The notes under the pieces: model-generated
What the model was told of the DNA's origin: nothing
What the model saw: the letters and a program-made list of their open reading frames with translations, nothing else
The model's database searches: none
Position numbers and translations under genes: made by a program
Shown here: one piece after another, positions 10,133 to 10,333 of the stretch
Numbering within the stretch: the stretch's first letter is position 1
Layout of the letters: the number at the start of each line of letters is the position of its first letter
From: an uncultured Candidatus Saccharibacteria bacterium
Lineage (GTDB): Bacteria > Patescibacteriota > Minisyncoccia > Phycocordibacterales > UBA918
Direction of reading: 5' to 3'
Length of the DNA stretch: 24,000 nt
Assembly: GCA_964492305.1 (NCBI GenBank)
Contig: CAZBJN010000002.1
Span: forward strand, 279 to 24,278

Positions 10133-10191
10133 GTCACGAGTTACTAACTAGAATAGTTCGCTACGCTCCTATTCTAGTAAGTACTCTCGAC
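10133..10191 (-). repeat. Copy C (divergent) of the imperfect-palindrome repeat, in the tRNA-Val downstream module
   Basis: In tRNA sense: GTCGAGAGTACTTACTAGAATAG-GAGCGTAGCGAA-CTATTCTAGTTAGTAACTCGTGAC. The termini (GTCGAG...CGTGAC) and cap architecture (GAG-stem-GNA-stem-GAA) match the other copies. The inner arms differ but are mutually complementary (CTAGAATAG / CTATTCTAG). Confidence 0.75.
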
Positions 10192-10245
10192 CCCGGCTCG
10201 ACTGTTCTTCTCGCTTGGAAAGACGAGAAGAACATGTCTCCGCCC

Positions 10246-10333
10246 CGCACATAGGTACGGAAGCAAAGCAGTTTGCTTCCTACAATAAAAAGCAGTCTCG
10301 AGTGAGAACTGCTTTTTATTATACCTATGTGCG
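10246..10333 (-). other. 88-nt three-way palindromic unit overlapping the tRNA-Val 3' end
   Basis: Arm 10322-10333 (tacctatgtgcg, including tRNA nt 10330-10333) is the exact reverse complement of arm 10246-10257 (cgcacataggta). The arms enclose a 13-bp A/T-flanked terminator-like hairpin (10284-10296 / 10308-10320) and a 22-nt hairpin at 10259-10280. In tRNA sense the latter reads GGAAGCAAA-CUGC-TTTGCTTCC. Confidence 0.8.

What the first reader, a model, noticed from the sequence alone, without database searches (positions are those of the whole stretch)
10133..10333. Homologous 201-nt module downstream of tRNA-Val, with the same architecture and different stems
In minus (tRNA) sense, in order:
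- The arm CGCACATAGGTA (10333-10322) includes the last 4 tRNA nt.
- A 13-bp A/U-flanked terminator-like hairpin follows (10320-10284).
- The 22-nt hairpin GGAAGCAAA-CUGC-UUUGCUUCC follows (10280-10259).
- The exact complementary arm lies at 10257-10246.
- After a 12-nt spacer comes a 10-bp hairpin (10233-10204).
- After another 12-nt spacer (AGTCGAGCCGGG, compare GGCGAGCTGGGG at the Leu locus) comes palindrome copy C (10191-10133).

The unit is 88 nt, against 89 nt at the Leu and Arg loci. The CUGC loop and 9-bp stem length of the second hairpin match the Leu copy exactly, although the stems share no sequence.
Basis: seen in the sequence. Interest (0 to 1): 0.8.

Follow-up and report, generated by a model that had tools for sequence, protein, structure and literature searches.

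The report
Self-guided mobile insert behind tRNA genes
The 201-base module behind tRNA-Val is one complete copy of a gene-less mobile DNA element, apparently undescribed, that is widespread in Patescibacteria (CPR bacteria), carries a 13-base stretch complementary to the gene end it sits next to, and repeatedly inserts behind tRNA and other essential genes.

Summary
It is far beyond chance: the only three 12-nt inverted repeats with 64-65 nt spacing in the window sit at the three tRNA ends.

The module is one full unit, window 10133-10333 on the minus strand, of a family I could trace in about 100 Patescibacteria genomes. Each unit contains, in order:
- the host gene's 3' end;
- a terminator hairpin;
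- a 9-bp hairpin with a CTGC loop;
- a 13-nt guide complementary to the host gene end;
- a covarying scaffold (P1-P3);
- a 58-nt terminal hairpin ending in GTGAC;
- a direct repeat of the target that starts at the third base of the guide-paired site.

Copies lie behind 18 kinds of tRNA, tmRNA, ftsZ, rpsI and rplB. They contain no ORF. They differ between strains that are 90-98% identical, and newer copies stack on truncated older ones.

The structure is strand-specific, on the sense strand of the host gene. It lies downstream of a strong terminator and is rich in C-GNA-G triloops. This favours a folded single-stranded DNA intermediate, similar in logic to IS200/IS605, over an RNA.

No enzyme partner, Rfam family or publication was found. 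I judge it a new variant of a known kind, and possibly a new guided insertion system. Interest is high.

The parts
10330..10402 (-). tRNA-Val(tac), the host and target gene. No CCA is encoded.
   Evidence: ARAGORN; Rfam tRNA, 68.9 bits.
10322..10333 (-). x1 (N1-N12, CGCACATAGGTA). It consists of tRNA positions 70-73, then C, then 7 nt of element-borne trailer. It is the 5' arm of the closing helix. The inferred left junction is N2|N3 (10332|10331).
   Evidence: 100% complementary to 10246-10257. Arm pairs covary in 29 units. Independent contigs L001-L003 start exactly at 10329, the right edge of the proximal CAC.
10281..10321 (-). A/T-flanked hairpin followed by a T run. It is a bidirectional intrinsic terminator carried by the element.
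   Evidence: The same type of hairpin separates other genes in the window. Helix 2 in A3 is 91% paired, with 13 of 14 pairs compensatory.
10259..10280 (-). hp2: a 9-bp hairpin with a CTGC loop. Its sequence class (AGCAAACTGCTTTGCT) is conserved across the family.
   Evidence: Helix 3 in A3 is 98.5% paired, with 8 of 9 pairs compensatory.
10246..10258 (-). 13-nt guide GTACCTATGTGCG, of which 12 nt are complementary to x1. Its 3' five nt pair with the tRNA end. The rest pair with the element's own left end.
   Evidence: The guide has a constant length of 12-14 nt between hp2 and the scaffold in about 40 copies. Complementarity to the element's own target averages 10.8 of 13, against 7.6 of 13 for other tRNAs.
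10191..10245 (-). Scaffold. It reads R-N1N2C-G-SA-M1M2M3-AT, then the variable P3 hairpin (10204-10233), then A-M'3M'2M'1-GA-G-N'2N'1-GGGG. P1 and P2 are 3-bp helices flanking a conserved purine-rich internal loop.
   Evidence: P1 is 98.7% paired with six different Watson-Crick combinations, and all P2 pairs are compensatory. The covariance model scores 10132-10245 at 95.1 bits, E = 1.5e-20.
10133..10190 (-). P4: a 58-nt imperfect terminal hairpin (subfamily GAGTAC...GTAACTC) with a C-GTA-G apex. It ends in GTGAC, the right end of the element.
   Evidence: The two P4 subfamilies differ by compensatory double changes. The apex is a C-GNA-G triloop in 52 of 68 copies.
10130..10132 (-). Distal direct repeat CAC (= N3-N5 of the target). 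The older sequence resumes after it.
   Evidence: Junction rule: the base after GTGAC equals N3 of the guide-paired site, including the copies where N3 is A, G or T.
9979..10122 (-). Older copy of the same family, aimed at the T loop of tRNA-Val. It has an antisense segment of the acceptor end (10106-10122), hp2 GAAAGTGCC-CTGC-GGCACTTTC (10086-10107), the guide GTAGAGATTTGAA (10073-10085), and scaffold plus P4 (9979-10072). It has lost its own terminator to the newer insertion.
   Evidence: (I8). Covariance model 96.5 bits. It is orthologous to the only copy present in the related genome MFLT01/L047, at 96% identity.
9966..9978 (-). Direct repeat of the tRNA-Val T loop and T stem (CAAATCTCTCATC). 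This is the displaced original 3' part of the tRNA behind the older copy.
   Evidence: D13, 13 of 13 identical to 10335-10347.
9562..9749 (-). Sister copy behind tRNA-Arg(tct): x1 9738-9749, terminator 9697-9738, hp2 9674-9695, guide 9661-9673, scaffold plus hybrid P4 9562-9660.
   Evidence: Covariance model 87.7 bits. Strain L107 lacks it, and L114 has two P4 copies where the window has one hybrid.
13805..14075 (+). Sister copy behind tRNA-Leu(gag): x1 13805-13816, terminator 13817-13857, hp2 13859-13880, guide 13881-13893, scaffold 13894-13946, variant P4 13947-14004. It is followed by a truncated older copy (P4 at 14016-14075) and further right-end remnants up to about 14165.
   Evidence: The related genome has a different, T-loop-targeting copy at this tRNA.

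Best explanation
The module is a 199-nt, ORF-less, non-autonomous insertion element. The inserted segment is about 10331 to 10133 on the minus strand, flanked by a 3-nt CAC repeat. It belongs to a family that is common in Patescibacteria.

Shown:
- The element consists of three consecutive hairpin domains. H1 is about 88 nt. Its base is the pairing of a 13-nt internal guide with the host gene's end plus the element's own left end, and it encloses a terminator and the CTGC hairpin. H2 is the covarying scaffold. H3 is the P4 hairpin ending in GTGAC.
- The structure is selected on one strand only, the sense strand of the host gene.
- The right end is always joined to the target at position 3 of the guide-paired site.
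- Copies come and go between close relatives and pile up at the same tRNA.

Inferred:
- The element moves as folded single-stranded DNA.
- The 3' five or six bases of the guide base-pair with a short target, either the tRNA acceptor end ('type A', this copy) or the T loop ('type B', the older copy at 9979-10122).
- A trans-encoded enzyme cuts and joins the top strand between N2 and N3 and after GTGAC.
- This is the logic IS200/IS605 transposons use with their 4-nt DNA guides, here extended to 13 nt.
- Because the element brings its own copy of the gene end and a terminator, the host gene stays intact.
- Once present, copies can also spread between strains by ordinary homologous recombination, with the conserved gene and P4 acting as arms.
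For: Family and placement:
- An 18-mer from P4 hits 99 genome stretches, almost all Patescibacteria. It lies about 100-280 nt downstream of a tRNA, on the same strand, in about 65 of them.
- The covariance model finds 153 matches in 0.73 Mb. Of the best 119, 91 lie behind a tRNA or tmRNA on the same strand, with a median gap of 86 nt.
- Other copies lie behind ftsZ, rpsI and rplB.

Guide:
- Its length is constant at 12-14 nt.
- It matches its own target at 10.8 of 13 positions, against 7.6 of 13 for other targets.

Junction rule:
- The base after GTGAC equals N3. Identity then runs for 3 nt or more in 52 of 62 copies. N3 = A, G or T is tracked by the element-flank junction.

Structure:
- Scaffold plus P4 are 96.3% paired with 15 compensatory pairs, and 0 of 500 shuffles reach this.
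- The three-helix junction is 94.6% paired with 32 of 35 compensatory pairs.

Strand:
- The sense strand is more stable in 40 of 43 copies.
- It has 149 G-U/G-T pairs against 46 on the other strand, p = 2e-8.
- Reverse-strand model hits score 29 bits or less, against about 95 bits.

DNA rather than RNA:
- The guide and scaffold start 0-3 nt after a canonical terminator, with no conserved promoter.
- P4 apexes are C-GNA-G triloops in 52 of 68 copies. P3 loops are 3 nt in 26 of 67 copies.

Mobility:
- The related genome MFLT01 (about 90% identical) has only the old copy at Val and a different copy at Leu.
- Strains 95-98% identical differ at Arg.
- Three independent assemblies break exactly at the edge of the proximal CAC repeat.
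- The same tRNA-Val 3' end occurs naive, or with at least five different element families, in other metagenomes.
- Tandem arrays occur with 5'-truncated older copies.
Against: - No transposase or recombinase was found. There is no ORF inside any copy.
- No recurrent enzyme gene appears in 0.93 Mb of flanks. A recalled IS608 TnpA sequence gave no hit there.
- The predicted empty allele of this copy was not found in JGI contigs.
- The second assembly break, at 13887 inside the Leu guide, is unexplained.
- In IS200/IS605 the guide lies 5' of the bound hairpin, pairs only with bases 5' of the cut, and leaves no repeat. Here it pairs on both sides of the cut.
- G-T wobbles and GNA triloops are compatible with RNA as well.
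- How T-loop-targeting copies acquire both a new tRNA 3' part and the matching guide is not explained.
- Spread by homologous recombination alone could mimic some of the 'mobility' signals.
Confidence: 0.5

Rival explanations
1. This is an RNA-guided element. The sense transcript (guide, scaffold, P4, possibly running into the flanking repeat) is made by terminator read-through from the highly expressed host gene. It acts as a guide RNA for a recombinase or nuclease encoded elsewhere, comparable to IS110 bridge/seek RNAs or to the OMEGA RNAs of TnpB and IscB.
For: - A variable guide of fixed length sits next to a conserved, covarying scaffold, which is the hallmark of guide RNAs.
- The structure is strand-specific, with G-U pairs on the sense strand.
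- All targets are highly expressed genes.
- Optional structured inserts in scaffold and P4 loops resemble RNA expansion segments.
- RNA-guided systems such as TIGR-Tas are known in CPR (PMC12045711).
Against: - Every copy places a canonical terminator between the host gene and the guide. No conserved promoter follows it.
- The loops are mainly triloops of the C-GNA-G type rather than GNRA or UNCG tetraloops.
- There is no hit to any Rfam guide-RNA family.
- The guide matches the filled site at least as well as an empty one, so it cannot discriminate the two for nuclease-based homing.
- No effector gene is nearby.
Confidence: 0.27
2. This is a miniature integrative element, a cis-mobilisable remnant moved by a tyrosine integrase encoded elsewhere. 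It uses the classical tRNA sublocations (T loop and 3' end). The guide-target helix rebuilds a duplex copy of the attachment site in folded single-stranded DNA, as in CTX phage or integron attC sites.
For: - The element carries a replacement 3' end of the gene and leaves the original as a direct repeat, as integrase-borne elements do. In ftsZ the two copies differ by synonymous changes.
- Targets (tRNA T loop, tRNA 3' end, tmRNA, rpsI) are typical integrase targets by established knowledge of tRNA/tmRNA integration sublocations.
- The helix formed by x1 and the guide has the same sequence as the chromosomal site.
Against: - One conserved scaffold and P4 serve more than 25 different core sequences. 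Protein-read core sites would not allow that.
- In type A copies the repeat is only 3-6 nt, shorter than a tyrosine-recombinase overlap region.
- No integrase is nearby.
- No GTTRRRY or dif-like motif was seen on reading the arm sequences. No motif scan was run.
Confidence: 0.13
3. This is a fixed cis-acting RNA module of the tRNA transcription unit, acting as a 3'-processing, termination or stability signal. The trailer pairs with the tRNA end. The module is not mobile.
For: - The closing stem includes the last 4 nt of the tRNA and is favoured in the fold of tRNA plus module.
- The module is always co-oriented with the tRNA.
Against: - Only about 60% of tRNAs in the sampled loci have it. Orthologous tRNAs in close relatives lack it or carry a different copy.
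- It also follows protein genes.
- Direct repeats and stacked truncated copies show repeated insertion.
- The complementary arm lies beyond the terminator.
Confidence: 0.05

Closest known systems
IS200/IS605 transposons and their ORF-less derivatives (palindrome-associated transposable elements)
   Same: - Strand-specific and built from imperfect subterminal hairpins.
- An internal DNA segment base-pairs with the cleavage and target site, so the target is read by nucleic-acid pairing.
- Non-autonomous copies are moved in trans.
- No staggered-cut duplication is needed.
   Different: - The guide is 13 nt instead of 4 nt. It pairs on both sides of the cut, so a 3 to 20-nt direct repeat results.
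- The target varies (tRNA T loop, tRNA end, ends of protein genes) instead of being one fixed tetra- or pentanucleotide.
- The element carries a terminator and a replacement gene end.
- No Y1 transposase was found.
IS110/IS1111 elements with bridge or seek RNA
   Same: - A programmable nucleic-acid guide next to a structured scaffold specifies the insertion site.
- Insertion is precise.
   Different: - There is no DEDD recombinase ORF in the element.
- There is one contiguous antisense guide, not two loops each with left and right guides for both strands.
- There is no fixed core dinucleotide.
- The guide lies behind a terminator.
Integrase-borne islands and phages in tRNA/tmRNA genes, and their cis-mobilisable remnants
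   Same: - Same sublocations: T loop and 3' end.
- The element restores the gene's 3' end, and the displaced original end remains as a direct repeat.
- Elements stack at one tRNA.
   Different: - Only 200-400 nt long and with no integrase.
- One conserved scaffold is used for dozens of different core sequences.
- It contains an antisense copy of the site.
REP/REPIN elements with RAYT transposases
   Same: - Short, ORF-less, hairpin-forming repeats in intergenic regions.
- Multiple copies per genome.
- Presumably mobilised in trans as single strands.
   Different: - REPINs are not targeted to gene ends.
- REPINs have no target-complementary guide, no scaffold, and a conserved GTAG head.
- They are lineage-specific rather than shared across a phylum-level group.

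Membership tests
IS200/IS605 (including PATE derivatives) | Y1 HUH transposase TnpA, in the element or elsewhere in the genome | tested here: inconclusive
   No ORF lies inside any copy. No hit to a recalled IS608 TnpA sequence was found in 0.93 Mb of flanks. Whole genomes could not be searched.
IS200/IS605 (including PATE derivatives) | Imperfect subterminal hairpins at both ends, active on one strand | tested here: met
   H1 and P4 hairpins have conserved mismatches. The strand asymmetry is 40 of 43 copies.
IS200/IS605 (including PATE derivatives) | Insertion 3' of one fixed 4-5-nt target, without any flanking repeat | tested here: not met
   The target varies with the guide. A direct repeat of 3 to more than 20 nt starts at N3.
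IS110/IS1111 with bridge or seek RNA | DEDD recombinase gene inside the element, and an RNA with two bipartite guide loops | tested here: not met
   There is no ORF. There is a single antisense guide.
Tyrosine-integrase attachment sites in tRNA genes | An identity block from the crossover to the tRNA 3' end, flanking an element that encodes the integrase | tested here: not met
   The identity block is present in T-loop-targeting copies. No integrase lies in the element or nearby. In this copy the repeat is only CAC.
Integron attC site | Conserved R boxes (RYYYAAC / GTTRRRY), extrahelical bases, and association with a cassette ORF and IntI | tested here: not met
   On reading, the arms are the tRNA end and its complement and show no GTTRRRY. 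No motif scan was run. There is no cassette ORF.
REP/REPIN | A 20-40-nt palindrome with a conserved tetranucleotide head, dispersed in intergenic regions, with a RAYT gene flanked by copies | tested here: not met
   Copies are tied to gene 3' ends, 91 of 119 behind a tRNA or tmRNA, and they carry a guide and scaffold.
MITE | Terminal inverted repeats and a fixed-length target-site duplication | tested here: not met
   The two ends are unrelated: the gene end plus terminator on the left, GTGAC on the right. The repeat length varies.
Any Rfam 15 family (tRNA-linked RNAs, T-box, HEARO, ribozymes and others) | A score at or above the family's gathering threshold | tested here: not met
   Only the tRNAs pass. 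All other matches are far below threshold.
Intrinsic (Rho-independent) terminator | A G+C-containing hairpin followed by a T run | tested here: met
   The sequence at 10281-10321 shows a stem followed by TTTTT. The simple scan reported no terminator in 9500-10450. It did call the Leu equivalent on both strands. This covers only one part of the module.

The most novel reading that the evidence does not exclude
The family is a new class of programmable, nucleic-acid-guided DNA insertion system. A 13-nt guide embedded in a conserved scaffold directs an unidentified trans-acting enzyme to cut and join DNA at a fixed offset, between positions 2 and 3 of the paired site. The system would be mechanistically distinct from CRISPR-associated transposons, OMEGA systems, IS110 bridge RNAs and IS200/IS605.
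Probability: 0.3. Interest if true: 0.95.

Novelty: new variant of a known kind. Interest (0 to 1): 0.8.

Why it matters
If the reading is right, small-genome CPR bacteria harbour a very compact mobile element of about 200 nt. It chooses its insertion site by base pairing and repairs the gene it lands in.

That would add a further natural example of nucleic-acid-guided DNA insertion. It offers a short, readable guide (13 nt), a defined cut offset and a minimal scaffold, which are attractive properties for retargetable insertion tools.

It also bears on three practical and biological points:
- It would explain why metagenome assemblies of these organisms break at tRNA genes.
- It identifies a source of rapid structural variation next to essential genes.
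- It gives a concrete handle (co-occurrence with the element) for finding the enzyme responsible.

Tried and rejected
- **Assembly artefact.** Rejected. An independent assembly carries the identical module, and the family occurs in hundreds of records.
- **Genome-specific repeat.** Rejected. The P4 18-mer occurs in about 90 other Patescibacteria genomes.
- **Hammerhead or another three-way-junction ribozyme.** Rejected. The junction strands are 0-3 nt with no conserved core, and there is no Rfam hit.
- **K-turn in the scaffold.** The bulge is 1 nt, and the first G-A pair is replaced by C-A in half the copies. It is not a canonical K-turn.
- **TIGR-Tas arrays.** These have a different anatomy: 9-nt dual spacers in tandem arrays.
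- **Outward promoter in P4.** Only a weak TTTAGA-16-TATACT match exists, and its -35 part lies in the variable apex. Not pursued.
- **Autonomous copies.**
  - The long tRNA-to-P4 distances are explained by stacked copies or unrelated genes.
  - The 250-aa ORF in L107 is a membrane protein on the other strand.
  - Viral contigs gave no copy. One 17-mer hit was a chance match.
- **HTH/LAGLIDADG-like protein next to tRNA-Gly.** It is recurrent but tied to one tRNA only and shows only an HTH match. Not adopted as the partner.
- **Predicted empty allele.** The search found nothing.
- **Literature.** Six full-text searches, one of them for the sequence itself, found no description.
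Full report
**Observation**

The window carries three tRNA genes: Arg(tct) at 9745-9817 (minus strand), Val(tac) at 10329-10402 (minus strand) and Leu(gag) at 13723-13809 (plus strand).
- the arm CGCACATAGGTA at 10322-10333 (the last 4 nt of the tRNA, then C, then 7 nt);
- an A/T-flanked hairpin with a T run at 10281-10321;
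- GGAAGCAAA-CTGC-TTTGCTTCC at 10259-10280;
- after one G, the perfect complement of the arm at 10246-10257;
- 12 nt, then a 10-bp hairpin at 10204-10233;
- 13 nt (AGTCGAGCCGGGG), then a 58-nt imperfect palindrome at 10133-10190.

The Arg and Leu loci have the same layout with other sequences. In the whole window, only three inverted repeats of at least 12 nt have 64-65 nt between their arms. They are the three at the tRNA ends, and all are 100% complementary. The region folds far better than shuffled controls, with z = -10.9 as RNA including the tRNA and -12.0 as DNA. An independent assembly from another sample (L114) contains the identical module, contiguous from tRNA-Val through tRNA-Arg.

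**A family, not a local oddity**

Flanking genes are ordinary housekeeping genes of a CPR bacterium (pilM/N/O, uppS, rluD, rplS, ABC transporters), and there is no transposase. Identical proteins occur in Rifle aquifer assemblies.

An 18-mer from the palindrome, AGAACACTTAGTAGATTT, occurs in 99 stretches of the species-representative genome collection. Almost all are Patescibacteria: Kaiserbacteria, Paceibacteria, 'Parcubacteria' and records labelled Saccharibacteria. The few hits outside the group, in Prochlorococcus and Peptacetobacter, lack the other half of the palindrome. One MAG labelled as a gammaproteobacterium is probably mis-binned.

In about 65 stretches the 18-mer lies 100-280 nt downstream of a tRNA gene on the same strand, whatever the anticodon. 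A covariance model of scaffold plus palindrome finds 153 matches in 0.73 Mb. Of the best 119:
- 91 follow a tRNA (18 amino-acid specificities) or a tmRNA on the same strand, with a median gap of 86 nt;
- 15 have no upstream tRNA;
- 13 lie too close to a locus edge to judge.

Other copies, with no tRNA upstream, follow ftsZ, rpsI and rplB. In the window the model scores 10132-10245 at 95.1 bits (E about 1e-20). It finds three further strong copies, while the reverse strand scores 29 bits or less.

**Anatomy**

Comparison of the copies gives a common plan in the sense of the host gene:
1. The host gene's 3' end and a short trailer.
2. A terminator hairpin.
3. In some copies, an antisense copy of the acceptor end that extends the terminator stem.
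4. hp2, a 9-bp hairpin with a CTGC-type loop. Some copies lack it.
5. A guide of constant length (12-14 nt, starting with G).
6. A scaffold: R-N1N2C-G-S-A-M1M2M3-AT, a variable hairpin P3, then M'-GA-G-N'2N'1-GGGG.
7. P4, a 58-60-nt imperfect hairpin ending in GTGAC.

The distance from the start of the guide-paired site to the end of the guide is about 86-91 nt.

Covariation is strong.
- For scaffold plus P4 (51 sequences), 96.3% of cells pair, against 87.5% in shuffles and about 30% when partners are slid. Fifteen pairs show changes on both sides, and 0 of 500 shuffles reach the observed values.
- P1 shows six different Watson-Crick combinations.
- For the junction of arms, terminator and hp2 (29 sequences), 94.6% pair against 62% in shuffles. 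Of 35 pairs, 32 are compensatory, including 11 of the 12 arm pairs.
- The window copy and its relative behind the same tRNA-Val in another metagenome differ at two arm positions on both sides: CATAGGTA/TACCTATG against CCAAGGTA/TACCTTGG.

The arms therefore do not drift independently.

**The guide and the junction rule**

The 13 nt between hp2 and the scaffold match the element's own host gene at 10.8 of 13 positions on average, against 7.6 of 13 for other tRNAs. Two target positions are used:
- the T loop plus the 3' strand of the T stem (positions -21 to -10 from the tRNA end), which I call 'type B';
- the last 5 nt of the tRNA plus the trailer (-5 to +7), which I call 'type A'. The Val, Arg and Leu modules of the window are type A.

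Number the paired target N1-N12, with N1 opposite the guide base next to the scaffold. The base that follows GTGAC is then N3, and the flank continues as N4, N5 and so on. Identity runs for at least 3 nt in 52 of 62 copies. The rule also holds in the copies where N3 is A, G or T.
- In type B copies, the repeat runs on to the end of the tRNA. This is the displaced original 3' part of the gene.
- In type A copies, the repeat is 3-6 nt. In this copy it is CAC at 10130-10132.
- Behind ftsZ, the proximal and distal copies of the last codons differ by synonymous changes. The element therefore brings its own version of the gene end.

Only the 3' five or six bases of the guide need to match a new target. 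The rest of the guide pairs with the element's own left end.

**Mobility**
- The related genome MFLT01 (L047, about 90% identical across 3.5 kb between the two tRNAs) has only a type B copy behind tRNA-Val. The window retains that copy (9979-10122, 96% identical, followed by the 13-nt repeat of the T arm at 9966-9978). It has the 199-nt type A copy inserted between the tRNA and the old copy, and the old terminator is lost.
- At tRNA-Leu the relative has a type B copy. The window has a type A copy plus three stacked right-end remnants, one of them orthologous to the relative's copy.
- At tRNA-Arg, strains 95-98% identical show three states. L107/L113 have no element, and a 250-aa gene lies there instead. 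L114 has the element with its own P4 plus an older P4. The window has one hybrid P4, which is the product of a deletion between the tandem P4 copies.
- Three independent assemblies start at 10329, the edge of the proximal CAC. This is what a mixture of filled and empty alleles would produce.
- The same tRNA-Val 3' end in other metagenomes is followed by a plain terminator, by a type A copy, or by at least four other scaffold families. These share the same logic: an antisense guide ending in TTGAA and a repeat from the T loop. Such relatives also occupy other tRNAs.
- In tandem arrays, the copy next to the tRNA is intact and the distal ones are truncated at their 5' side.

**Which molecule folds?**

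The structure is selected on the sense strand. That strand is more stable in 40 of 43 copies and has 149 G-U/G-T pairs against 46 on the other strand, p = 2e-8.

A sense RNA would have to read through a canonical terminator that every copy places directly upstream of the guide. No conserved promoter follows the terminator.

The loops are unusual for a selected RNA. P4 apexes are C-GNA-G triloops in 52 of 68 copies, and P3 loops are 3 nt in 26 of 67. By established knowledge, such mini-hairpins are exceptionally stable in DNA. I therefore favour a folded single-stranded DNA intermediate, but RNA is not excluded.

**Mechanism proposed**

The closest working analogy is IS200/IS605. There a small HUH transposase acts on one folded strand, and an internal DNA guide pairs with the cleavage and target site. 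In this family:
- the guide is 13 nt and spans the cut;
- the element begins with N3-N12 and ends with GTGAC;
- insertion between N2 and N3 of a site matching the guide's 3' end would give exactly the observed repeat, without staggered cuts.

The element's terminator and replacement gene end would keep the host gene functional. Homologous recombination through the conserved gene and P4 would explain replacement and deletion events such as those at tRNA-Arg.

Shown: the anatomy, covariation, strand bias, junction rule, turnover and distribution.

Inferred: the single-stranded DNA form, the cut positions at the left end, and the enzyme. No enzyme was found.

**Comparison with known systems**
- No Rfam family matches.
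- Six literature searches, one of them for the sequence itself, found nothing.
- The family fails defining features of IS110 (no recombinase ORF, a single guide) and integron attC (no R box).
- It also fails defining features of REPIN, MITE and integrase-borne islands (no integrase, and one scaffold serving dozens of core sequences).
- It shares only part of the IS200/IS605 definition.
- I file it as a new variant of a known kind, a non-autonomous hairpin-ended element with an internal guide. There is a substantial chance that it represents a new guided insertion system.

**Unexplained**
- The assembly break at 13887 lies inside the Leu guide, at the boundary between its two functional halves.
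- The predicted empty allele is absent from JGI contigs.
- The origin of the matched sense and antisense tRNA parts in type B copies is unknown.
- The identity of the enzyme is unknown.

Noticed in passing
L037, L038, L060, L073, L089, L013, L044, L066, L103 (for example L073:3150-3833): A 227-aa protein family with an N-terminal HTH and a LAGLIDADG-like motif (AGLMVYLAAGD) recurs in nine of the fetched CPR loci. It lies directly upstream of tRNA-Gly in at least four of them (L037, L038, L060, L073). Pfam, NCBIfam and PDB searches see only the HTH.
   Followed up: partly
L118, L121, L124, L127, L128, L134, L140; L035, L062, L006, L007, L059, L046: At least four further element families have different scaffolds and terminal hairpins, for example ...CCAATTGGGGTACTGAACATGTAATG|TTCGAATCC. 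They share the same logic: an antisense guide ending in TCGAA or TTGAA, and a direct repeat from the T loop. Composite copies carry one such module inserted at the TC|GA foot of P4.
   Followed up: partly
L107:4189-4956 and L113 (corresponds to window 9626-9740): In strains about 97% identical to the window, a 250-aa membrane-anchored ORF with no Pfam match lies between tRNA-Arg and an old solo P4. It replaces the Arg element.
   Followed up: partly
window 9562-9633, compared with L114: The window's Arg P4 is a hybrid. Its 5' arm is canonical and its 3' arm is of the AGTAATTCG type. L114 has two separate P4 copies with a remnant of another element family between them. This indicates a deletion by recombination between tandem P4 copies.
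   Followed up: yes
window 14060-14165: Three stacked right-end remnants lie behind the Leu element: GTGACC|AAAGACG, TTTGACC|AAAGTTG and CTAGTGACC|TAATCCAGTCTT. The last is followed by a repeat of the tRNA-Leu T arm and is orthologous to the copy in MFLT01.
   Followed up: partly
window 9885-9899 and 9809-9823: A 15-nt near-repeat of the 5' end of tRNA-Arg (TACAGGGGCAGGTGA against TACAGGGGCAAGTGA on the plus strand) lies 76 nt upstream of the gene.
   Followed up: no
window 13887/13888; L001 and L002 right ends: Two independent assemblies end inside the Leu guide, between TGCGTT and GTGGTG. This is the boundary between the half that pairs with the element's own left end and the half that pairs with the tRNA end. 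No alternative allele was found.
   Followed up: partly
L066:about 1700-2060 and L103:about 930-1290: A tRNA-Met-like 3' end (..CCGGTTCGATTCCGGGCCCCGCAAC) is preceded by a long structured insert and is not called by ARAGORN. It may be an intron-containing tRNA, and it still carries a family copy downstream.
   Followed up: no
L070, L075 (JBLHGD01, labelled Candidatus Azotimanducaceae): True copies of the element, with a CPR-like tmRNA on L075, occur on two contigs of a MAG labelled as a gammaproteobacterium. This is probably a binning or labelling error rather than a host outside Patescibacteria.
   Followed up: partly
window 212-247, 12890-12928, 15739-15776, 22039-22092: Perfect A/T-flanked hairpins sit between convergent or consecutive genes. 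Bidirectional intrinsic terminators are the normal gene punctuation in this genome, which is why the element's own terminator looks native.
   Followed up: no
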